Source: Podospora anserina
Taxonomy: Eukaryota
Direction of reading: 5' to 3'
DNA length: 64,000 nt
Assembly: GCA_017654855.1 (NCBI GenBank)
Contig: CM030332.1
Coordinates: 4,216,001 to 4,280,000 of the forward strand
Made by a program: the position numbers and the translations under genes
Part shown: positions 38,416 to 62,620 of the stretch, piece by piece
Position numbering within the stretch: the stretch's first letter is position 1
Layout of the letters: each line of letters begins with the position of its first letter
Notes under the pieces: model-generated
What the model saw: only the letters and a program-made list of their open reading frames with translations
Databases searched by the model: none
What the model was told of the DNA's origin: nothing

Positions 38416-41400
38416 TCAGTCCGCAGACCTCAAGCCATTCACCCCCACAAAGTTGGTGTACTCACACCTGCAACCCCCAGTACCACCATCCATCCCCCCA
38501 AAGCTCGGGTTGAAGAACCCGCCCGGGTTGACCAAATCCCCCGTGTTGTTCATCTGATTGAGGAACAGTTTCGCCTCACTGGTGACAACCCTCCGCCTCT
38601 CATCCACCCCCCTCATAAAAACAAATTTATTCCCCGGGATACCCCCGTGCGTATCAAGCGTGACCGTAATCGGGTAAGGGAACGTGCCGGGCTGTGTCCC
38701 GTTTACATTCGCCTCCCGACCGCCAAACCCGCCGATTAGCTTGGTGGTGTTGGACTTGCGAGTCCAGATCTCGACTTTATACCGGACCGACAGCCAGGTA
38801 ACGACAAATTTCGCTTCTGAGATGGGGGAGCCGCCGTTGCGGTCGATGGAGGGGGGAAGCCGCTCGTTGAGGGAGGAGAGGTAGATTGTTTTGTTGTAGT
38901 ACGAGTAGAAAGAGTATCGTTCTGTTGGTAGGCCGCGGTCGTAGAGGCGGAGGGGTTGCTGAGTGGGAAAGTGGAGGTGGTTGGCGGGCGCGGCGGTGCC
39001 GTCTTTGTTTAGGATGGGTGGGGGGACGAGGTCGGAGATGTTGAGGGCGGGGGAGAGGTTGCCTGAGGCTTGGCGGGGTTGGTTTTGATGGTCGTCAAAT
39101 CCCCCCCTGCGGGTGAGGAGGTTGGGGCCGACGGTGGAGTTCACGGAGCGGAGGATGGAGATGTAGAAGGGGGTGGGCTCGCCGGCTTTGTCGTCAGAGA
39201 CAACACCGTCGGTGGTGTTGCCTAGGAAGAACATGTCTTGGAAGGTGGGGGGGTCGGGGACGGGTTTGAGGATGAGGTTGCCGGGGGTTTGGCGGGGTGT
39301 GACGAAGAGTCGGCGGAGGATGGTTGAGAAGCTGATGCCGTTGCTGCGGATGGAGACGGAGCGGGTGGTGGTGCGGTTCCGGCCGACTGTGCGGTTGAGT
39401 TCATCTAGGGGTCTTCCGGTTCCGAGGTCTATGGGGGTAGGCCGGGGGGGTTCTTGACCGGTGACGTTCCATGTCTGTCTGGTGTTGTTGTCGAACTGGA
39501 TTTGAAGGATGAAGCTTGGCTGGTCCGCGTTGAAAGGGGCCACGGAATCGGCCTCTTCTTTTGGGAGCGAGCAACTCCAAAGTGTTGCCGGTTGGATACA
39601 GACTGTGCTTGAGTCTGACTGAGTTCCTATCACTGTCGAAATGCCAGTGGGCATTGGTGGGAAGTCGGTGAGGTTGAGAAACCGTGATGGGATGCTTGCT
39701 TCGGCCACTGTGCGCCGTGATAGAACCACTCCAAGGACAACCCCCAAAATGATCATGGAGATGAGGGCAGCAAGGATGCCAAAGCACACTCGTCTCCGCT
39801 TCCGTCCCTCGGGCCCTGGCTTCCCAAGAGCACCGCAGCATGGGAAACACCCACGCCCTACTTTCCTCGCCACAAAGTCTTCTTTCTCGTGCCTCCTTCG
39901 CTTTCGTTCTGCCGCCAAGTTGGGCAAATAGTTTGCTGGGAGAAAAGACCCTATCGGCCGGTCTGGCAGCCGCATCTGTGTCGGAGGTGGTGTTAGAGGA
40001 ACATTTTGGAGACCGATGGCGCCTTGGGATGTCATTGTCTGCGATAAACCAACAGGGACGGGACCTGGTGATGGGGGGAACATGGTGGTCGCAGCGTGGC
40101 CTGGAGGAAGCACCGCCTGGTAACGAACATTCTCCTGTCTATGTGGAGGTGAATAGGGAGGCGGGAACTCGGGTGTTCGAGATTCCTCAACCAGGATGCG
40201 TGACTTTTCTGTTTGGGTCTCGGGTTGAGACACTACTGTTGATGCTGGTACCGGTGTCGGAGCTGGAGCTGGAGCTGGGGCTGCTCTCGGGGCTGTAATA
40301 GGTGTCGGTACTGGTGCTGGTGCTGATCCTGGCGGGTTTGGAGTTGATTGCGTGGGCTCAACTGGTGAAAAGTCCTGAACAATGATGCGTGGCGGACGTT
40401 GCTGTGGAATTGTCTCAATCTTCGAACTGCTAGACTGGCCAAAATTGGACCTCGTGAGAACAGGCGAGAGCCCCGTCTTTTGGTTTGTCGTTTCCCACCA
40501 TTCAGTATTCACCTTTGGCTCAGCAGCTTCTCCTACAGTCGGGAGTCTTGGTGTTGCTGGGGTTGGTACAAAAGGGGAAGTGACTTGATCCCACCATCCC
40601 TGAGATCGCGTACTCCCACCAGTATTTGACCTCTGCCTGTTAGTGTGGCTGTATGACTTTTTGGTGACTACTGGACTGCCATCTTCCTCAAAAAGCGTCA
40701 CGGGTGTGTCCATATCGCTGTCATCGTCACTGACATAAAATGCAGTTGTTGCCGTGTCTCGTCTGTTGTTGCCCTCTTTGCTCATCCCAAAGCCATCCAC
40801 ACGATCGCGGTCAGATATAGGAGAGAATTCCTGACCTCTGTAGCCAGAAGGGATGGATGGAACGGCTGGGACATAGGCCGTTTGTGGAAGGATCATGCCA
40901 TCGAGACCCCGAGGGGAGAAATCGTCCTCGGTATCCGGTGACCATGCAGATACCGGCTGCTTTGATGGCGGTGATGTTGGTGGTTGGCGAAAATAGGGGG
41001 GCAAGTCCACTGGTGTCTCGACCACAGCTGTATGGGGGCTGATGACTACATCCGAGTCTGTAGGCATCTCGAAGCCGATCATAATAGGCCCGGCACTAGG
41101 TGAGAGATCAACCTGCGGCGAAGACTCAGCAACTAGCCTATCGACTCTTTTGCCTTTTGTCGGCTTCCGTTTCAGCCAGCCGAAAGTGCTGCTAGATTCA
41201 CCGTTCTGTTGCCCTTCCAAAGCTAACAAGGCGGCGGCATCAACGAATTTCCCTGTTCGACTCTCGCGATTTGCCGAATTCAGTTTCATTTGGTTGGCGA
41301 TATGCTGCTGCTTCTGTTGACGGAACTTGGACATGTCGGTGACCAGTTTGATGCCCGCCCTTGCGTTTTGTGCCTTTTGTCTATGTCGAGATTTTAACCT

Positions 41401-41634
41401 CTTCACCTTCTGTACGGACAGGCGTGGTGCTAAAGAGGCGGTTGTTGTCTGACTTGGCTGTCCAGATGGAAATGGGTCTGTGTTGATGTCCACCAAGGGG
41501 CCGTCCATGGGGGCAGCTGTCATGGGAGTCAACACTTCATCATCCTCCCATTCTTCCCAGTCCTCCTTGGTCCTGCCAGTGAGGTGGCTGCTGGGACGAT
41601 AGGGAGGGGTCCGTAAGTCGTTCGTGTTGTCCAT
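38416..41634 (-). CDS. Large single-pass membrane protein of unknown function (about 1070 aa, intronless)
   Basis: Long ORF with a likely start at MDNTNDL (41634). It has a disordered Pro/Ser-rich N-terminus with PPPY, then GCFPCCG, a basic stretch and one hydrophobic helix (VCFGILAALISMIILGVVLGVVL), then a domain with Cys residues and many NxS/T sequons. Confidence 0.8.
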   Translation of the reverse strand: MDNTNDLRTPPYRPSSHLTGRTKEDWEEWEDDEVLTPMTAAPMDGPLVDINTDPFPSGQPSQTTTASLAPRLSVQKVKRLKSRHRQKAQNARAGIKLVTDMSKFRQQKQQHIANQMKLNSANRESRTGKFVDAAALLALEGQQNGESSSTFGWLKRKPTKGKRVDRLVAESSPQVDLSPSAGPIMIGFEMPTDSDVVISPHTAVVETPVDLPPYFRQPPTSPPSKQPVSAWSPDTEDDFSPRGLDGMILPQTAYVPAVPSIPSGYRGQEFSPISDRDRVDGFGMSKEGNNRRDTATTAFYVSDDDSDMDTPVTLFEEDGSPVVTKKSYSHTNRQRSNTGGSTRSQGWWDQVTSPFVPTPATPRLPTVGEAAEPKVNTEWWETTNQKTGLSPVLTRSNFGQSSSSKIETIPQQRPPRIIVQDFSPVEPTQSTPNPPGSAPAPVPTPITAPRAAPAPAPAPTPVPASTVVSQPETQTEKSRILVEESRTPEFPPPYSPPHRQENVRYQAVLPPGHAATTMFPPSPGPVPVGLSQTMTSQGAIGLQNVPLTPPPTQMRLPDRPIGSFLPANYLPNLAAERKRRRHEKEDFVARKVGRGCFPCCGALGKPGPEGRKRRRVCFGILAALISMIILGVVLGVVLSRRTVAEASIPSRFLNLTDFPPMPTGISTVIGTQSDSSTVCIQPATLWSCSLPKEEADSVAPFNADQPSFILQIQFDNNTRQTWNVTGQEPPRPTPIDLGTGRPLDELNRTVGRNRTTTRSVSIRSNGISFSTILRRLFVTPRQTPGNLILKPVPDPPTFQDMFFLGNTTDGVVSDDKAGEPTPFYISILRSVNSTVGPNLLTRRGGFDDHQNQPRQASGNLSPALNISDLVPPPILNKDGTAAPANHLHFPTQQPLRLYDRGLPTERYSFYSYYNKTIYLSSLNERLPPSIDRNGGSPISEAKFVVTWLSVRYKVEIWTRKSNTTKLIGGFGGREANVNGTQPGTFPYPITVTLDTHGGIPGNKFVFMRGVDERRRVVTSEAKLFLNQMNNTGDLVNPGGFFNPSFGGMDGGTGGCRCEYTNFVGVNGLRSAD

Positions 41635-42781
41635 GTTGGGTGTATTGATTAAATTGTGCTTGATTATGTAGCGATGGTTGGTGTGTGATGGGCTCTTGTC
41701 AGAAATATTATTAGGAAGAGGAAATTTGTTGCAAGTCGAAATGGAACCAGGCCATTTGGCAACAAGACCTTTGTAGAAGACTTCGATATGGCCACAGGTG
41801 AGTGGCAACGTGATTGAATTGTGTCCCGGTGATTAGAATCCTTCCAATCAATAGACAATAGAAAAGAAAGGAGCACCTTGAGGAAGAACCGGCATTTCTC
41901 GGTGCAGGTGGCTGTTTCAAAGAAAGCCAACAATGCAAGTCCACCAGGAACAATGGAGCCAGAACAATAGGAACAATGGAGAGAGAAAACCACGAGAAGA
42001 ACGACAGATAGAAAAGAGAGGCAAGTGAATAATTTGCAAGGAGAAACCAAACACAGTCACCACCAGCCATTTCACCACCACCTAACCGGGAATCCGACTC
42101 ATGGATCCATTCGCGGATGTCTGAGTGGCTCGCCTCTGGCCGGACTGCATCTGCCCATGTTTGCGAGAAAGGGCTCGTCGTTAAGCAGAGCGCTCTCTGT
42201 GGACAGAAGGAAATGCCCCATTTGATGGGGCATGAGAACTGTGTGGAATAAGCGCTGCGAGGTTGCTTCGCGCCGAGGGATTGGCCACGGCGAAGCGCCC
42301 ATGTATACCCATGGTCTTGAACTTGATGTTGATTGGTTCCTAGTCGCGGCTGCATTCAGACCCGTCCATCCAATTGTGCTCATCGTGTCGCTTCGCAGCG
42401 CAACACGGAGATTGAAAGCTCCACACAGCTAGTGAAGAGTCCAGAACAACAAATCTGTCGCGTCATGGCATTTGATGAAACCGAAGCTGGCTGAAAAGAT
42501 GGTGACTGGTTTCCAGTGGATTTGTTTCCGCCTGTTCGTGAACTGTGGAAGGTGGGTGGGATACGGGTGTGGCCCGTGCGTCCCGCTCAAAACCCACAAC
42601 AACACAGGCGAAGTTCGAGATCCTTGAACAAATCACCATCTAAACATCACAGCTTGATGGTTTCTCGAGCTGTCTACTGACTGATCGTTAGGTAGACACG
42701 GCCCATATTTCTAGTAACACCAGTCTGTACTCTCACCTAAACCCACAGGCAGCTTCTCTGCTGAGATTCCAGGCAAGCGCT

Positions 42782-42827
42782 GCCAAGTCCGCCAAGCGTC
42801 CAGCTCTTGCCAAGCTTTATTGCCAAG
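42782..42827 (+). promoter_or_regulatory. Cluster of four GCCAAG (PacC/Rim101 consensus GCCARG) sites
   Basis: Exact GCCAAG at 42782, 42791, 42809 and 42822, all in the same orientation. Confidence 0.55.
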
Positions 42828-43018
42828 CCGTCAAGGGCTGCAAGAAAGACGTCACTAAGGTCCCTTGCAACTTAAATCTGTGTTGGCTGCAACATATCTT
42901 GATCGATTAACCTCAACGACACATAAATGAACATAGATCAATGACATGATATTTTGATAACCACATCCTTGTTTCCAGCGAAGTTCCACTACCTCCACTA
43001 TCTCGTTTCTCCAGGTAT

Positions 43019-43212
43019 CTAGCAACAAACACACTCCTCGCCGCAGCAACAGCAATCGCACTCTTCCACAAATCCACCACGCATGCCCACTTCAGGTTGA
43101 GGTTCCGCACTCTGTTGACAAAATGAGTCAGGCATGTGAGATATATCCAACATCATCTCAAGAGACTCACAGGTTGCCTTGTTACCAGACCGTCGAGTGG
43201 AATAGCCTCCAT
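43019..43212 (-). CDS. Spliced 44-aa Cys-rich microprotein MEAIPLDGLVTRQP|SAEPQPEVGMRGGFVEECDCCCCGEECVCC
   Basis: Exon 1 is 43212-43171 (42 nt). The 59-nt intron 43170-43112 has a GTGAGT donor, CTGAC branch and CAACAG acceptor. Exon 2 is 43111-43019 (93 nt including TAG). The join is phase 0 and in frame. Confidence 0.65.
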
Positions 43213-46084
43213 GGGCTGCTTTGTTGAGGGTCATCATCGGAGGGCATTATCTTGGTTTTGAAAGAGACTGGCTTCAAGAGCTGATGAAGATGTAGGTAGG
43301 ATATGATCTAAAGACGACGGCGTGCACACTAGGCCCCATTTATCACATTTCAGCATCCTACCTATTAGGAGACTGTAATGGGCCAGAAGCCAACAAACCG
43401 ATGAAAACCAGACTGCCGTGCTTTCCGTATTTCGTCATCCTTTAGCTGTACGTTTCTCAACAGCCAAAATGATGCTGTTTCCGGCCATCGAAATAACCGG
43501 GTATGTTAAAACGCCAACAGCGGCCTGTGCGTGAGCGAATTTTCATAGGATGAACAACCACAACACCGGAGCTGGTTGTGCGTTTTATGCATGGCTTACT
43601 GATATAAGTCACAAGGACTGACATCTCCAATCAGGTTGAGGGCTTCATCGCCAGTGGCACTCGAATCAATTATGGTGTCAGACGAATATATGGATGTCGT
43701 ATCCACCGGCACTTGAATTCACCATCGATTACGCCCTTACGAACCGCTGGGCCCGGTCTGGCAACCATCCACACCAAGTAGACTGTCAGAACGGCGTAAA
43801 AACGGGAAACGGCGCCCAACCCCCTCAATGATCATGCCCCGACAAAGAAGGCTAGCACGGGAAACTGAAAACCCATGCCAACACATGTTAACGATGAGGA
43901 TTGTACCTTGTGAAGAGGTTAGAGAGCCGAGAGAGAGGTCAAAGCCTCCAAGACAGTGAATCAGTCACTCGAGTGGCTCGATAGAATCGTCTTCTATCAC
44001 AGTGATGACTGTACTAAGATGTCAATATGTCCAGAAAGGCAATCTGGAAGATGTAGTATGATATCTCGATGCCAAGTGAAACAGTGTTTCAAGGTAAAAA
44101 CGATGTTTTTTTGCATTCGACAATCCCGCCAGCATTGTCATGCCGTCTTGGAATCGCCCCAAACTCGGAACAGACAGTTTCTAGAAACGCCGGCAAATGT
44201 TCTATCACGGGGGCCAAACCCCAGGAAAATGTTTGCTTGGCAAGATCATCTCGCTCACATTTCATTGTTCCGCGTCCTGGTATTTGGCACTCTGCAATAT
44301 TTCCGAAAGTTTGGATGTCAGATGCTGGTCGGCGGCTCAGCACAACTCATAAGTCTCGTGCCAAGAAAATGTCCATCTTCACAAACATGAAGACCATCAA
44401 GGAGTCCAGTAAAAGAGCCAACTTAGTGTTCAGATGTGAGCTTTTCCGGCCCACCTAGGTATCTTACCGGCAAGCACTATCACGGCCGTTTTGCCTTTTA
44501 AGATCTGATGCTGCAGAACGCCACCGAGGAACCATTTTCAATTGGGGCGCTGAGAGTTGATAGTGGGTAAGATTACGCAGCCTTGGCACCTTTTCAACAA
44601 CGACTTGAAGGAAAAGGGGATGCGATGGAGTGACGGCCAATAGGTATGGAAATCCGAACCTCATCTGTCACCTCTCTCCCTATCCCAGCTTTCATGTGTC
44701 CGGATCCGGTCTACTGCTGTTCTACCGCTGATCCGAACCGGTGTCTGAATTCGTCGGATACACGCGTAAACATGGCCCCGAATCGCGTCACCCGCAACCT
44801 GGAACTTGTCAGGGGATTGTCGTGACTTGAGGACTTCTGGAGAAATGGAGAAATTGGTGATGGCGTTTGTGAACGTTGGGGTCTTGGTTTCTAACCCCCC
44901 CTGAAATTGAACGGTTCTGAGAGATAAGGTGGACGCTACCCGACGTTTAGCGTGTTGCAGACAGGTTGATCTCTGGCAATGATTTGTCCCATGTTTCCAT
45001 CTGCGACCTTGAAAATCCTGAGAATCCCGTCCTACGCTGCAAACGGAGAGACAGTGACGGGATGGAAACAAATATGGAGTTGAAGACAACAAGCCAGCTG
45101 TTTCTCGTATATGTGCTCACAGTCAGAATCAGAGGCTCATCAGGACTGGCAAGCATCGGGGTTTTACCTCAGCCCAGGGAGTTGAAGAAACAGGGGCCCT
45201 CCACGGGCCCCAGGCCAAGGAGCGAGGACCCTGCCGAACAAACAAGGGGGGAGGAAAAAGCTGGCTGACCGCTGCCGAAAAAGTCTTGGCTTCACAATGT
45301 CCACTCTGGCCAAATCCTCAACAACAATTGTTTGATAATTTCGAACAAACTCGACATCCACCGCCCCTCAAGCATACCTATGAATCCCAATCCCGCTCCT
45401 TCATCTGCACCGACGACCAAACCCCGCAGCGTCGCCCCGCGTGGATCGAGGCGCGCACAGAGCGTCCAGAGGGAGTGACGAAGAGACGACAGTCTTACAG
45501 CACCACCACATCACTGGATCTGCCGTTTCGGTAGGCGGTACAGCAGACGCCTCGTCGTTTATTCGGCTGCAACTGCGAGTTTCACCAGCTGCAATCGCAA
45601 TCAAGACTGGAATAAATCCCCCCCACAAATCGAAAGCTTGGTGAGGTGGCTCCCGTCCCTCCCATTCAACCACCCAATCGCCAGCGCCCCATCCCCGTAC
45701 GACGTTGAAGAAAAACCCACAAACTGGCGTCCTCCCAGAACGGCGGAGCGTCGTCGTCGTCGTTCAGCGACCGACCGGTACGGTCCCATCACCGAAGACG
45801 CTCATCCGCCGCCGGACCCAGTCCAGGTAGTCTGCGATTGGACAACCGACGCTCTCCTTCGGCCTATTTGACCGTCCAGCCTCAGCATCAGCCTCAGGGA
45901 CCTCTCTCGCCGATTCCAGGTACGTGGCTACTATCCACCTGGTCCTCGTGTTCCCCCTTCGGCCGCCAGCAGCCACGGGTGACAAGCACTCTTTGTGTTT
46001 GCGCAAACCCTTGTGTGGAATGTATATCACACAGCAACAAGCTAATCCCTCCTCCTTCGATTTCTAGGCACACCCAGTTTCCCG

Positions 46085-47586
46085 ATGTCCTTGTCTCGCA
46101 GTCCATCTCCCGTACCTGGCGGCGGTTGGGCCAGCCCAGGTCTCAACATCGGCAGCGGTCGATCGAGTCCAACCAGAGGATACACAGGGGGGTCGAGCAG
46201 CGCAACGCCTGTCATGTGGGAATCATCAAGACTAAAAAAGGCTGGCGGGTCCGGGTACCCTTCCTTTGCGACGCAGAACTCGGGCTTCCTGTCAAAACAC
46301 ATGCGCAAGATATCGAGCAGCCTCCCCCGTTTCAACAGCTCCAGCAGCTCGCCCTATTCCGAGAAAGAGAAGCTTGGCCGTGGTAGATGGTCGGCTCAAA
46401 ACGTACCGTTGCTGGGAAGATTACGGGCTCTCATGGGACGCATGGGCCGGAAGATGAAGATACGGCTACTCATTTTGCTTATGCTTTTATTTTGCATCAT
46501 CGTATTTTACAATACTCGTAAGTGGACATCTAGGGACGGGTAGCTCGGACGAGCCGCGGTTAACAATACGCCCAGCTTTGGTATATCACTGGAGAAGAAC
46601 GTCATGGCTTGGCGGCGGTCAAAAGTTTGTCATCATATTGGCTGCCAACGTTGGTGGCGGTGTCATGGAGTGGAAGGGAGCACGAGAATGGGCGATTGAG
46701 CGAGACTCGGTTAGGAACAAAAAGAAATACGTGGGCAGATGGGGATACGATCTGGAGATTGTCGACATGAGCACCAAGAAACGGTATGCCCACGAATGGC
46801 GCGAGAGTTGGGAGAAGGTGGATTTCATTCGCACAGCGCTCAGAAAGTACCCCAAGGCCGAATGGTATGTCTGGTTGCTGCTTCCTGTCCACTCGTCCGA
46901 TGGTAGCTAACGCATATTCTAGGATCTGGTGGCTTGATCTGAACACCTTCATCATGGAACCAAGCTATTCACTCCAGGACCACATCTTCGACAACCTTCA
47001 CAAGCATGTCTACCGTGACATCAACGAATACAACCCGCTCAACATCACACACCCGATGACGGACGAGTACCTCGACGCTGATTCGCGAAGCCCCGTGGGT
47101 GATGGCAACGTCAACTCGGTGAACTTGATCCTGCCCCAGGACTGCTCTGGATTCAACCTTGGCTCCTTCTTTGTTCGCCGGAGCCCGTGGACTGACCGGT
47201 TGCTGGATGTCTGGTGGGATCCTGTGGCATACGAACAGAGGCACATGGAGTGGGAGCATAAGGAGCAGGATGCGCTGGAGCAGCTGTACACTACTCAGCC
47301 CTGGATCCGGAAGCACACTGGTTTCCTTCCGCAGCGCATGATCAACAGCTTCCCACCGGGGGCGTGCTCAGAGAACGGCAACGACACCCGGATCCACTAC
47401 GATCAAAAGGACCGGGACTTTTTGGTCAACATGGCTGGTTGCGAATGGGGCCGCGACTGTTGGGGAGAAATGTACAATTACCGTGAGCTCAGCTACTGGC
47501 TCAACCGAAACCCCTGGGAGCTCTTCAAGGAGGAGTTTGTGGCTGTCATTTGGTTCAAACTCACGGGCCAAAAGGTCAAACTTTAA
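46085..47586 (+). CDS. MNN10: GT34 glycosyltransferase, Mnn10-type (mannan polymerase II subunit / galactosyltransferase-like), 3 exons
   Basis: Type II membrane anchor (IRLLILLMLLFCIIVFY) and motifs WEKVDFIR..LRKYPKAEW|IWWLDLNT, GFNLGSFF, EQDAL and DFLVNMAGC. Introns at 46518-46575 and approx. 46865-46922. Confidence 0.88.
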
Positions 47587-60694: not shown

Positions 60695-62584
60695 GGCTCT
60701 TCACTCCAATCCAAACAAGGACCAGCAGCCGCGTCAGGTTCTTCAAAGCGTCGACAGCAAATCCCGCCCTAGGGGAAAGCCGGAACGGGTGGAGAAGTAC
60801 GAACAGGTTTCAGTTATTCCTACATCATCACGCTTCGTCCAAGCTGCAGGAGTTCTTGAGATGCAAGATAGCAGCAATGCAGGGACTTTGGACATGAACT
60901 CTCCGGATGGTTTGGCAGATACGAGTGTTTTTAACTTTGACTGAAGAAACGGGACCCAGACAAGTACCTTATTCTCGTGGTCCTCAACGGTCGCCTCAAG
61001 ATATTCTTAGATTTATCCGTCACCGTTATGGTAGTTTCAACAAACATCAACTTGCAAACTCAATTCAAGTCTGCATGCATAGTCCCAGATTGGCTGCTGA
61101 TGCCCTCCAATAGAGTCCTATCATCTGGCAACGTTCATGTGGCCATTGGACACAACAACCCACCGATCCGGAACCATCTTCCCGGCGCGCCCTCGAGAGC
61201 TCCAGCAGCAATGTCACCTGCGGCCTGCCGTCGACAGCTATTGTTGGCTGCCGACGCTGCAACTATCTTCACGATCCGGGCTTGGCAGTCCACATCGGAA
61301 GCTGTCTCGTTGCTATCTCGCATCTTGCCAAGCATGCCGCCGACAATTTCCTTACATGGCGGGCTGAGGCGTATCCGGAGATATGTCCGGGGCTTCTGGC
61401 GGGGAGTACCGGGCCATTCCCGGGGGTTCTTGCTTTGCAGGTCGGCATGAGGTGCTATGGAATGGCAATTGCTCGCTGAATACACGGTTGAATACACAGT
61501 TCTAGACCTTTTGAAGGATATCTCGGCATTGCACGTTGGAAGCGGGTCAAGCAGACGTCGTGTGTAAGTGGATGTTTAATCAACAAGCATTTTCCTTTGA
61601 CCTCTTTACATTCCACCCAGGAACTGATCATGAGTTAAGTTTATGCTTCCCCATTCAGTAAGTAGCCTTCAACCCAGACGACCGAGAGTAACCATTGACT
61701 TCCGCATCCCACGATATCTTTAAACCCGTCTATCCCTATCTCTCCATCTCACCTTCCCTCTCGTGACGAGCTGCATATCTAGAAGAAATCCGGGTATCCC
61801 ACGCTACATACATACCTAGTTCGCACTATACAGTACGACCGGTTAAATCGGTGGCGTTTCCTGTCGTGTCCCAGTTCTTTGCTCCCCTTCTCTCGCATCT
61901 TTCACACCGTTGTTGCAGCTGCAAGAACAGGGCATGGCAGTGTAGCTATGACAGCTTGCTTATCTCCCCGCCCCCGCCCTTCGGGAAGCTCGTTGATAAG
62001 ACGAACAACAACGACACCAGAGACCGGTGAACAAGGAATTGGGAAATTCTCTTAACCTTTTTACGACTAGAATGGCCCGGAACCGGATGTGGTTGAGGAA
62101 GATGCAACTGGGAATTGGGGAGGGAGGTAGGGAGGGGTGTTGGCATTCTTGGTGACTTGGTCATCTCCCGACCAGGTTATGTCATCTTTTTTTTCCATGA
62201 GGGGGGACCAATTGGGGTGATTTAAACACACACACGCCATAAGAATCTAGAATTCCATAAACCTCCTCTAAACAAAGAGATATGCTGCGGGGGGAGTTCT
62301 TGACCGAGTCGACAGCCACGTCTCTTCGGACCGAAATGTTTTAACTGCCGGTTTAACGTGGGGGGGATGGAGGATGGGGACGGGAAGAGTAACTAACCCC
62401 TCCTCTTGAGAGCTCATGGGAGAGCTGTTTCGTGTCACCACCACCCAACTTTGAAGCTTTTGCTCACCGAGGGGCTTGGGCGAGGTAGGTCGTAGCTTTA
62501 GAAGTTCCAACATGCGGGAGAGGGATGGATTGCGTAGCGTAGCAGTACAGTCGGTCTGTAACATCCCTGGTGTGCAGGTGTGTC

Positions 62585-62585
<1 letters not shown>

Positions 62586-62620
<35 letters not shown>
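62586..62620 (+). repeat. (GT)17 microsatellite
   Basis: Direct reading. Confidence 0.95.

What the first reader, a model, noticed from the sequence alone, without database searches (positions are those of the whole stretch)
43019..43247. Hidden spliced microprotein: QP-rich leader, ubiquitin-like RGG, then a 17-aa tail with 8 cysteines
Seen: a canonical 59-nt intron joins two tiny exons into MEAIPLDGLVTRQPSAEPQPEVGMRGG-FVEECDCCCCGEECVCC*. The tail after RGG has 8 Cys and 5 acidic residues and ends in CC. Out-of-frame ATGs lie at 43247 and 43237/43234; the latter reach the same tail if the intron is retained. Known: ubiquitin-family precursors are cleaved after LRGG by deubiquitinases; Cys-dense peptides act as metallothioneins or are lipidated (CYSTM-like palmitoylation, C-terminal CC prenylation). 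Inference: this may be a precursor processed at RGG to release a small metal-binding or membrane-anchored peptide, an uncharacterised leader/core system below normal gene-calling size. I recall similar QP...RGG-Cys-rich hypothetical proteins in filamentous ascomycetes but know of no function.
Basis: partly seen in the sequence, partly recalled or inferred. Interest (0 to 1): 0.75.

Follow-up and report, generated by a model that had tools for sequence, protein, structure and literature searches.

The report
Conserved fungal cysteine-tailed microprotein gene
This is a real, spliced fungal gene for a tiny acidic protein that ends in a cluster of cysteines; it is conserved across a whole class of fungi, its usual start codon is out of frame in this genome, and its function is untested but probably concerns metal or stress handling.

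Summary
On the minus strand, ATG 43212, a 59-nt GT..AG intron (43170-43112) and exon 2 (43111-43019) give the stated 44-aa ORF. Contigs of 2 of 4 laid RNA-type runs carry exactly this splice.

It is not an orphan. It belongs to an uncharacterised 54-64 aa family found in 10 orders of Sordariomycetes. All NCBI names are 'hypothetical', 'uncharacterized' or 'unnamed'. In 39 of 39 aligned members RGG is invariant. The tail after it is 17-20 aa with 6-8 Cys and no basic residue.

Intron position and synteny are kept. Synonymous sites are saturated while pN/pS is 0.07-0.35.

New points:
- The family starts 12 codons upstream (MP...QQQP-ME), at window ATG 43247.
- Here that ATG is out of frame through a one-base deficit in a CAG run, and RNA contigs agree.
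- The leader is conserved, not divergent.

No Pfam family matches (0 of 39). The architecture and language-model features point to CYSTM-like proteins, but the tail is acidic, not transmembrane.

The best guess is a thiolate metal/stress module. Cleavage at RGG is neither tested nor excluded.

The parts
43245..43247 (-). Start codon of the family (AUG1, Met-Pro...). In this genome it is out of frame with the rest of the gene.
   Evidence: 39 of 39 aligned members and 15 of 15 metagenome loci start here, reading M-P/A...QQQ.P-M-E. A is at -3. The 91 nt upstream hold no ATG, as in all 8 other loci examined, where the nearest upstream ATG lies 91 nt or more away.
43182..43247 (-). 21-codon ORF opened by AUG1. 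Its first 9 codons follow the family N-terminus, then it runs out of frame to a TAA.
   Evidence: MPSDDDPQQSSPWRLFHSTVW plus stop.
43220..43221 (-). Place of the one-base deficit in the CAG/CAA run. There are 35 nt between AUG1 and Met13, against 36 (39 in L008) in the 7 relatives of alignment A4.
   Evidence: DNA alignment A4: window CAACAA-AGCAGCCCATGG against the A4 consensus CAGCAGCAGCAGCCCATGG. Four RNA-type contigs of four runs cover it with 0 gaps and 0 other letters (table 8).
43171..43212 (-).
   Evidence: M13, Q25 and P26 are invariant in 39 of 39.
43112..43170 (-). Phase-0 intron, 59 nt, GTGAGT..CTGAC..CAG.
   Evidence: The joint is seen in contigs of X3 and X8. GT follows the QQP codon in 14 of 15 loci; candidate 3' splice sites were worked out for 9 loci (7 distinct sequences), giving introns of 61-118 nt.
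43019..43111 (-). Exon 2: the end of the leader, RGG, the Cys-rich tail and the stop codon.
   Evidence: The 30 residues are identical to P0003.
43073..43081 (-). The codons of the invariant Arg-Gly-Gly.
   Evidence: R37, G38 and G39 are invariant in 39 of 39. The Arg is the only basic residue in 32 of 39 members.
43022..43072 (-). 17-aa acidic Cys-rich tail (8 Cys, 5 Asp/Glu).
   Evidence: This is the most constrained part of the gene, pN/pS 0.07.
42922..43353 (-). Smallest span covered by RNA-type contigs that carry the gene. The strand is known only for the spliced ones.
   Evidence: table 8: X8 42925-43315 and X3 42939-43502 (both spliced); X6 42985-43353 and X1 42922-43499 (both unspliced).

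Best explanation
Shown: this is the local copy of a protein-coding micro-gene conserved across Sordariomycetes.

Gene structure in the family:
- Two exons with a phase-0 intron after an invariant Gln-Pro.
- A product of 54-64 aa: a Cys-free, nearly Lys-free, acidic, Gln/Pro/Met-rich leader (MP....PQQQ.PME...VVTQQP.AEPQPEM..), an invariant [L/M/I]-R-G-G, then a 17-20 aa tail with 6-8 Cys, 2-5 Asp/Glu and no basic residue. The tail ends in CC in 38 of 39 aligned members.

Shown for this genome: one base is missing in the CAG run at codon 10. The strong family start codon (43247) therefore gives only a 21-aa out-of-frame peptide. The conserved part can be made only from the invariant internal Met13 (43212; 44 aa; weak context with C at -3), by leaky scanning past three ATGs, or as shorter or longer variants (re-initiation at ATG 43084, or ATG 43237 on unspliced RNA).

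Inferred: the tail is a thiolate module that chelates soft metal ions (Cu(I), Zn, Cd) or buffers redox stress. It would act in the cytosol or, after S-acylation, at a membrane face. This would make it an acidic, non-transmembrane counterpart of CYSTM and metallothionein-type proteins. The conserved leader would serve recognition or self-association, and RGG would be the hinge between the two parts or a processing site.
For: Gene reality:
- The splice joint stands in contigs of 2 of 4 laid runs.
- 2, 5 and 65 database relatives were found. Nine representatives scored at E<=0.001 among 1.84 billion.
- 15 metagenome loci were confirmed out of 409 pattern matches.
- GT follows the QQP codon in 14 of 15 loci.
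- Both flanking genes are kept in L003, L005, L006, L012 and L013.
- Within 41650-45050, only the micro-gene's exons and one piece beside the downstream gene find relatives.

Selection:
- Window against 9 loci: pS 0.76-1.03, pN 0.07-0.23.
- By region, pN/pS is 0.33, 0.32, 0.26 and 0.07, with the tail lowest.

Frameshift: shown by alignment A4. RNA contigs cover the site with 0 gaps.

Anatomy:
- Invariant columns.
- Tail and leader composition: net charge -6 to -11, Lys-free in 35 of 39, Met 8.9% of the leader.

Function (inference only):
- 6-8 thiols flanked by carboxylates, with no hydrophobic core.
- The nearest named clusters by language-model features are all CYSTM-type, at 0.84, 0.78 and 0.77. 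All are below 0.9, so these are leads.
- UniRef names two members 'Metallothionein' and 'Cysteine-rich transmemb...'.
- CYSTM proteins have been tied to heavy-metal stress (PMC2804304 text; PMC10217909 abstract).
Against: Against the functional inference:
- No experiment or expression condition bears on function.
- No Pfam family matched in 0 of 39 members at E<=10. That includes CYSTM and the metallothionein families.
- The profile found nothing in the PDB.
- No shared promoter word rose above shuffled controls, and no consistent metal-, zinc-, iron- or Yap1-type site was found upstream in 9 loci.
- Cys spacing is not fixed across orders: there are three tail types.
- Five database models with the family leader carry no Cys tail: P0010, P0011, P0042 and P0048 keep RGG, and P0054 reads RGD. 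Three (P0012, P0036, P0069) continue past the CC with a Gly/Pro-rich extension.

Against function in this genome:
- The frameshift may mean that this copy is a recent relic.
- The deficit leaves the rest of the N-terminal codons family-like, so it may be young.
- Contigs give no strand. The unspliced ones (X1, X6) may be antisense RNA, since X1's contig carries a plus-strand splice.
Confidence: 0.55

Rival explanations
1. The protein is a precursor cut after [L/M]RGG by a deubiquitinase-like or other Gly-Gly/Arg-directed protease, which releases the 17-20 aa Cys-rich peptide (and a leader that ends in LRGG).
For: RGG is invariant in 39 of 39 members. The residue before it is L in 26, M in 12 and I in 1, so P4-P1 copies ubiquitin's LRGG. 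The Arg is the only basic residue in 32 of 39. All Cys lie behind the motif and none lie before it. The leader is conserved like a recognition sequence.
Against: The leader is 37-47 aa, Gln 16% and Pro 15%, with no ubiquitin-family match in 0 of 39. From general knowledge, not tested here: deubiquitinases bind the ubiquitin fold, and the bare LRGG peptide is a poor substrate. The residue after GG varies (F19, E9, C8, L1, M1, G1). No protease gene is a conserved neighbour. The structure prediction that could have shown a fold in the leader could not be run.
Confidence: 0.15
2. The tail is a multiply S-acylated membrane anchor: a CYSTM-like or cysteine-string-like tail protein at the cytosolic face of a membrane, not primarily a metal binder.
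For: The architecture matches the CYSTM description point by point, except for the helix. It has a Pro/Gln-rich head, a short hydrophobic element (V/I-V/I-T-Q-Q-P), a linker of variable length, and a Cys module at the extreme C-terminus with an acidic residue near its end (PMC2804304). The Atlas's nearest named clusters are CYSTM-type. The CC end is kept in 38 of 39.
Against: The tail has 2-5 acidic residues and no basic one. Its mean Kyte-Doolittle value is 0.29-0.82, and the best 17-aa window in any member is 1.07, so no transmembrane helix is expected. A net charge of -6 to -11 would be repelled by an anionic membrane face (inference). The Pfam CYSTM model matches 0 of 39. Three relatives continue past the CC.
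Confidence: 0.2
3. In this genome the gene is a recently inactivated relic. It is transcribed and spliced, but it makes only the 21-aa out-of-frame peptide.
For: AUG1 has A at -3 and Met13 has C at -3. Two more ATGs (43237, 43234) lie between them. Apart from the missing base, the N-terminal codons still read family-like, which suggests a young lesion. No protein for this locus was returned by the database searches.
Against: Everything downstream is intact: splice sites, frame and stop. Exon 2 is 30 of 30 identical to P0003, and the exon-1 part from Met13 is 13 of 14 identical. Met13 is invariant in 39 of 39 within an otherwise variable stretch, as expected of a second start codon. A young lesion would leave the same picture, so this does not decide the matter.
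Confidence: 0.35
4. It is a non-coding transcript with a chance ORF, or the precursor of a ribosomally made, enzyme-modified peptide (RiPP).
For: Non-coding reading: the ORF is tiny, and a second, plus-strand spliced transcript overlaps or abuts it. RiPP reading: a conserved leader with a more variable Cys core and a Gly-Gly boundary.
Against: Non-coding reading: codon-level constraint with saturated synonymous sites, and conservation across 10 orders. RiPP reading: the conserved neighbours are a GT34 glycosyltransferase and a 1072-aa protein without a Pfam match, so no known fungal RiPP enzyme lies beside it. The leader starts MP plus acidic/Gln-rich residues with no hydrophobic stretch, so no signal peptide is apparent by eye; no predictor was run.
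Confidence: 0.05

Closest known systems
CYSTM (cysteine-rich transmembrane module) tail-anchored stress proteins (Pfam PF12734; Venancio and Aravind 2010, PMC2804304)
   Same: Small size, a Pro/Gln-rich non-globular head, a short hydrophobic element, a variable linker, and a Cys-rich module at the extreme C-terminus with runs of consecutive Cys. It is the nearest named family by language-model features.
   Different: There is no hydrophobic helix: the tail is 17-20 aa with 2-5 acidic residues. The Pfam model matches 0 of 39. Only 15 of 39 tails have 3 or more consecutive Cys. The invariant RGG and the conserved MP...QQQ.PME leader are not mentioned in the text read of that paper (parts 1-2 of 3; its alignment figure is not held).
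Fungal metallothioneins (for example the Neurospora-type copper metallothionein; M. oryzae MMT1, 23 aa per bioRxiv 10.64898/2026.05.04.722827)
   Same: A short Cys-dense stretch with C-x-C and C-C motifs and no His. One member is auto-named 'Metallothionein' in UniRef.
   Different: No metallothionein Pfam family matches (0 of 39). Cys is confined to the last third. There is a long conserved Cys-free leader, Phe in the tail of many members, and a strongly acidic charge. MMT1 and F. oxysporum mt1 are other genes, judged by length and primer sequence. Their protein sequences were not compared, because Tucker 2004 is not held.
Ubiquitin fusion precursors (ubiquitin followed by a Cys-rich ribosomal extension protein) and other ...LRGG-X precursors; recalled, not fetched
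   Same: [L/M/I]-R-G-G directly precedes a Cys-rich C-terminal extension.
   Different: There is no beta-grasp domain. The part before RGG is 37-47 aa and Pro/Gln-rich, with no ubiquitin-family match. Processing is untested.
Cysteine-string and C-terminal CC palmitoylated proteins (recalled)
   Same: A run of Cys and a terminal CC.
   Different: The context is acidic rather than hydrophobic or basic. Nothing was tested here.

Membership tests
CYSTM (PF12734) | Match to the family's profile HMM | tested here: not met
   0 of 39 members at E<=10. The window's exon 2 and its 72-aa ORF gave no family at E<=1. HMMER filters drop most hits above about 0.1.
CYSTM (PF12734) | C-terminal transmembrane helix carrying 5-6 Cys (PMC2804304) | tested here: not met
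   The tail's mean Kyte-Doolittle value is 0.29-0.82, and the best 17-aa window is 1.07 or less. There are 2-5 Asp/Glu in 17-20 aa. The usual cut-off of about 1.6 is recalled.
CYSTM (PF12734) | Module at the extreme C-terminus, with a Pro/Gln-rich disordered head upstream | tested here: met
   The tail ends the protein in 39 of 39 aligned members. The leader is Gln 16.3% and Pro 15.3%. Three dropped relatives (P0012, P0036, P0069) continue past the CC.
CYSTM (PF12734) | Patch of 3-4 consecutive Cys | tested here: inconclusive
   15 of 39 tails have CCC or CCCC. The other 24 have only CC (tails listed).
CYSTM (PF12734) | Membrane location | not testable with these tools
   Needs microscopy or fractionation.
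Metallothionein | Match to a metallothionein sequence family | tested here: not met
   No metallothionein Pfam family in 0 of 39. The profile found no PDB relative.
Metallothionein | Cys-rich with C-x-C / C-C motifs and few aromatic or His residues | tested here: inconclusive
   The tail has 6-8 Cys in 17-20 aa, and 38 of 39 members are His-free. But Phe follows RGG in 19 of 39, and Cys makes up only about 10-15% of the whole protein.
Metallothionein | Metal-thiolate cluster | not testable with these tools
   Needs metal-binding assays. The complex prediction with Zn was never accepted by the queue.
Ubiquitin-like precursor | Beta-grasp (ubiquitin) domain before the Gly-Gly | tested here: not met
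   No ubiquitin-family Pfam match in 0 of 39. The leader is 37-47 aa and Pro/Gln-rich. No structure could be predicted.
Ubiquitin-like precursor | C-terminal LRGG followed by an extension | tested here: met
   [L26/M12/I1]-R-G-G in 39 of 39, followed by 17-20 aa.
Ubiquitin-like precursor | Cleavage after Gly-Gly | not testable with these tools
   Needs tagged constructs or mass spectrometry.
Fungal RiPP precursor | Conserved neighbouring modifying enzyme | tested here: not met
   The conserved neighbours are a GT34 glycosyltransferase (PF05637, E 1.2e-46) and a 1072-aa protein with no Pfam match. Only the immediate neighbours were looked at.

The most novel reading that the evidence does not exclude
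The Lys-free, disordered, Gln/Pro-rich leader that ends in invariant [L/M]RGG mimics the ubiquitin tail without the ubiquitin fold. It would be cut from its Cys-rich extension by a Gly-Gly-directed protease. The result would be either a free metal-binding or lipidated 17-20 aa peptide, or a small LRGG-ended peptide that can itself be conjugated (a eukaryotic counterpart of the disordered bacterial modifier Pup, recalled). The invariant Met13 would give a second, shorter isoform. That isoform is the only one this genome can still make.
Probability: 0.1. Interest if true: 0.85.

Novelty: new variant of a known kind. Interest (0 to 1): 0.5.

Why it matters
A roughly 56-aa protein kept across ten orders of Sordariomycetes, including model and crop-pathogenic species, has no name, no Pfam family and no paper in the library searched.

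Its build is unusual: a single Arg, almost no Lys, and all Cys behind an invariant LRGG. With a single Arg and almost no Lys, trypsin would cut it about once (inference), and it lies below many gene-calling size limits. That may explain why it has gone unnoticed.

It offers a compact test case for three questions: how Cys-rich tails act without a membrane helix, whether LRGG can work outside a ubiquitin fold, and whether a conserved internal Met serves as a second start.

This genome carries a natural N-terminal knock-out that could be used to address the last question.

Tried and rejected
- Whole genome of the window: none is held, so paralogues and other strains could not be checked.
- RNA holders: 'no RNA holder listed'. 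The runs used are only guessed to be RNA.
- Parts of the stretch without contig cover (42289-42796, 44067-44320) were not interpreted.
- Pfam on the window's ORFs and on 39 members gave only sub-threshold DUF hits: DUF4726 in 3 members (best E 0.025), and DUF4258 and DUF4106 in 1 each.
- The PDB profile search gave one hit at E 0.46, judged noise.
- Rfam on 41600-45100 gave one hit at E 0.6, judged noise.
- Promoter word search and known metal/stress site scan over 9 upstream regions: nothing above shuffles.
- The genome search with a locus handle: the record is not held.
No fold search was possible.
No verdict.
- A direct profile comparison with CYSTM sequences was not made, because no tool gave me CYSTM sequences.
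- Papers: no hit for three family peptide strings. The searches gave nothing on this family. Tucker 2004 is not held.
- Earlier findings of this scan: nothing.
- Rejected idea: that the N-terminal 12 codons had drifted after the frameshift. The DNA alignment shows they read family-like once the one-base gap is allowed.
- Rejected idea: a CaaX or Rab-type prenyl signal as the conserved feature. Cys at -4 is absent from all 9 type-c tails.
Full report
**Observation.**
- ATG 43212 opens 14 codons, MEAIPLDGLVTRQP.
- A 59-nt intron follows at 43170-43112. It has GTGAGT at its start, a CTGAC branch-like site, and CAG at its end.
- Exon 2 (43111-43019) reads SAEPQPEVGMRGGFVEECDCCCCGEECVCC plus stop.
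- ATG 43247 opens a 21-codon ORF in another frame.
- ATG 43237/43234 reach the Cys tail only through the retained intron, giving 72/71 aa.

**RNA.** Fourteen runs guessed to be RNA hold a quarter to a half of the sampled words of 42400-43900. I laid the contigs of four of them, from four studies.
- The joint 43111>43171 (59 nt skipped, GT..AG on the minus strand) stands in one contig each of X3 (42939-43502) and X8 (42925-43315).
- Contigs of X1 and X6 cover the intron unspliced.
- All four runs also show a plus-strand splice, 43501-43634 (GTATGT...CTGAC...CAG). It belongs to a second transcript reaching about 44018.
- Contigs carry no strand. X1's unspliced contig, which carries the plus-strand splice, may therefore be antisense or a merge of two RNAs rather than intron-retaining mRNA.
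- These canonical joints show that the material derives from RNA. No DNA run was laid as a control.

**The family.**
- The 72-aa ORF found two annotated proteins, from Podospora australis and Triangularia verruculosa (2 of 2 candidates).
- The Triangularia protein found 5 of 5 candidates.
- An exhaustive phmmer search found 9 representatives at E<=0.001 among 1.84 billion proteins.
- A 10-sequence profile found 65 proteins at E<=10 among 1445 candidates.

NCBI's names for them are all of the 'hypothetical', 'uncharacterized' or 'unnamed protein' kind. UniRef auto-names one 'Metallothionein' and one 'Cysteine-rich transmemb...'. Ten names that I looked up fall in ten orders and three subclasses of Sordariomycetes.

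Of the 68 proteins retrieved, I aligned the 39 that are full length with a canonical structure (A2). The 29 dropped rows were:
- one unrelated 1120-aa hit;
- nine ORFs that hold exon 1 and run into the intron;
- seven prokaryote-style ORFs with the intron read through or starting inside it, all of which keep RGG and the tail;
- one model with an upstream extension;
- two cut at a contig end;
- three with a Gly/Pro-rich extension after the CC (P0012, P0036, P0069);
- six models with no Cys tail: P0010, P0011, P0042 and P0048 diverge after RGG or RGGEE, while P0008 and P0054 lack RGG.

Over all 68 proteins, 56 have [LMI]RGG and 50 have it followed by 6 or more Cys within 20 aa.

**Anatomy**.
- Invariant in 39 of 39: M1, Q10, M13, Q25, P26, R37, G38, G39 and three Cys columns.
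- The residue before RGG is L in 26 members, M in 12 and I in 1.
- The leader has no Cys. It is Gln 16.3%, Pro 15.3%, Glu 9.5% and Met 8.9%.
- 35 of 39 members have no Lys. In 32 of 39 the Arg of RGG is the only basic residue.
- Net charge is -6 to -11.
- The tail is 17-20 aa with 6-8 Cys, 2-5 Asp/Glu and no Lys/Arg/His.
- The tail comes in three forms:
  - F.EEC.CC...EEC.CC (Sordariales, Coniochaetales, Magnaporthales, Ophiostomatales, Cephalothecales);
  - CGE[ST].DCCG.TESCGCC (Diaporthales);
  - EEAGCE.CCG.C.C.E.CC (Xylariales, Glomerellales, Hypocreales, Thyridiales).

The first form reads as two E-E-C-x-C-C units joined by three residues.

**Start codon.** That start is window ATG 43247.
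- It has A at -3 here and in the 7 loci of alignment A4.
- The 91 nt or more upstream of it are ATG-free in all 9 loci examined.

In the window, 35 nt rather than 36 (39 in L008) separate it from Met13. The alignment puts a one-base gap in the CAG run: CAACAA-AGCAGCCCATGG against the A4 consensus CAGCAGCAGCAGCCCATGG. With the base present, the N-terminus would read MPSDDDPQQQQPME, fully family-like.

Four contigs of four runs cross the site with no gap and no other letter. The deficit is therefore real in the material sequenced, though the strains may be the same.

Consequences in the spliced RNA:
- AUG1 gives 21 aa out of frame.
- 43237 gives 22 aa.
- Met13 (C at -3, G at +4) gives the 44-aa form.
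- ATG 43084 would give MRGG plus the tail.

**Selection and synteny.**
- GT follows the QQP codon in 14 of 15 loci. L004 has the two exons contiguous, and I cannot tell whether that record is cDNA or an intron-less gene.
- In the loci where a 3' splice site was worked out (7 distinct sequences), introns are 61-118 nt. Mean pairwise identity is 0.54, against 0.75 for the coding sequence.
- Nei-Gojobori counts, window (from Met13) against 9 loci: pS 0.76-1.03 (saturated), pN 0.07-0.23.
- Among 8 loci (28 non-independent pairs), pN/pS is 0.33 for codons 1-12, 0.32 for 13-26, 0.26 for 27-39 and 0.07 for the tail. The N-terminal dodecapeptide is therefore also coding.
- Loci with long flanks (L003, L005, L006, L012, L013) match the window on both sides, in the GT34 glycosyltransferase gene (46066-46866; PF05637) and in the 1072-aa gene (40925-41391).
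- Between the two flanking genes, only the micro-gene's exons and a piece at 42102-42428 find relatives. The plus-strand transcript does not.

**What it is like.** No Pfam family matches any of the 39 members at E<=10. The profile finds nothing in the PDB.

I read parts 1-2 of 3 of the text of the CYSTM paper (PMC2804304). It defines:
- a small tail-anchored protein;
- a Pro/Gln-rich head;
- a short strand with hydrophobic residues;
- a variable linker;
- a C-terminal helix with 5-6 Cys, 3-4 of them consecutive, and an acidic residue at its end.

This family has the head, a V/I-V/I-T-Q-Q-P element, a linker with indels, and the terminal Cys module. But the module is acidic and too polar for a helix in a membrane (best 17-aa Kyte-Doolittle window 1.07). 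Only 15 of 39 tails have 3 or more consecutive Cys.

By language-model features, the nearest named clusters are CYSTM-type, scoring 0.92 for an unnamed-Pfam ascomycete cluster and 0.84, 0.78 and 0.77 for named ones. The tool rates scores under 0.9 as leads. I therefore file it as working like a CYSTM/metallothionein-type thiol module, not as a member of either family.

**Mechanism.**
- Shown: a conserved, expressed, spliced coding gene with the anatomy above.
- Inferred: six to eight thiols set among carboxylates, in a protein with Met-rich surroundings and no hydrophobic core, fit best with chelation of soft metal ions or thiol redox buffering.
- S-acylation at a membrane is the main alternative.
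- The RGG motif is far too conserved to be a mere spacer. It copies ubiquitin's last four residues and is the single positive charge. Cleavage there stays possible, but it lacks the fold that known Gly-Gly proteases use (recalled knowledge).
- No shared upstream motif or metal-type site supports any regulation model.

**This genome's copy.** Either Met13 serves as a start (its invariance suggests a second initiation site in the whole family), or the copy is a young relic. The data do not decide; I put the relic reading at about one in three.

**Literature.** I found no paper on the family. Three peptide strings gave 0 papers, and the searches gave nothing relevant. M. oryzae MMT1 (23 aa; passages of the bioRxiv preprint) and F. 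oxysporum mt1 (passages) are other genes.

- A structure prediction.
- A complex prediction.
- Cluster member names.
- The window's own genome.
- Strand-resolved RNA evidence.

Noticed in passing
window 43379-44018 (+), intron 43501-43634: A second spliced transcript on the plus strand, divergent from or overlapping the micro-gene, seen in all 4 laid runs. An alternative donor at 43577 appears in X3. It holds a small spliced ORF starting at ATG 43469 (read by eye). No relative was found in the 15 loci at the DNA or peptide level.
   Followed up: partly
window 42782-42834; L014 855-908: A 54-nt stretch 185-237 nt downstream of the stop codon is 85% identical to L014 (52 matching bases in the window). 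It contains AATAAA and lies outside the RNA contigs. The database model P0008 of a relative seems (read by eye) to take the corresponding region as a coding exon in place of the Cys tail.
   Followed up: partly
window 42102-42428 (-): A stop-free frame upstream of the 1072-aa ORF's ATG (41634) is 35% identical over 79 aa to L003, L005 and L006. The neighbouring transcript reaches only to about 42170. It may be an upstream exon or a longer N-terminus of that gene.
   Followed up: no
window 45098-45167 (-): A minus-strand GT..AG intron is spliced out in the long contigs of X1 and X3 that begin at about 44750-44940 and run on beyond the laid stretch towards the plus-strand GT34 glycosyltransferase gene. 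This suggests an antisense or upstream minus-strand transcript there.
   Followed up: no
L004 158-328: One metagenome record has the two exons contiguous, with no intron, and an ATG-free 157-nt leader. It is either a cDNA-like record or an intron loss.
   Followed up: partly
P0012, P0036 (Diaporthe amygdali), P0069: A variant with an F.EEC-type tail is followed by a 35-50 aa Gly/Pro-rich extension, in an order (Diaporthales) whose usual members have the CGES-type tail. It is probably a paralogue. Cryphonectria parasitica also has two copies on one contig (P0035, P0038).
   Followed up: no
P0010, P0011 (Daldinia), P0048 (Clonostachys), P0054 (Xylaria): Database models of EEAGCE-type lineages diverge within or right after RGG/RGGEE(AG) and lose the Cys tail. 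This may reflect a second intron that the models miss, or real decay.
   Followed up: no
window about 62557-62620 (+): A simple repeat gives Cys/Val-repeat frames (CVCVCV). It accounts for 3 of the 9 Cys-dense windows in the six-frame scan.
   Followed up: no
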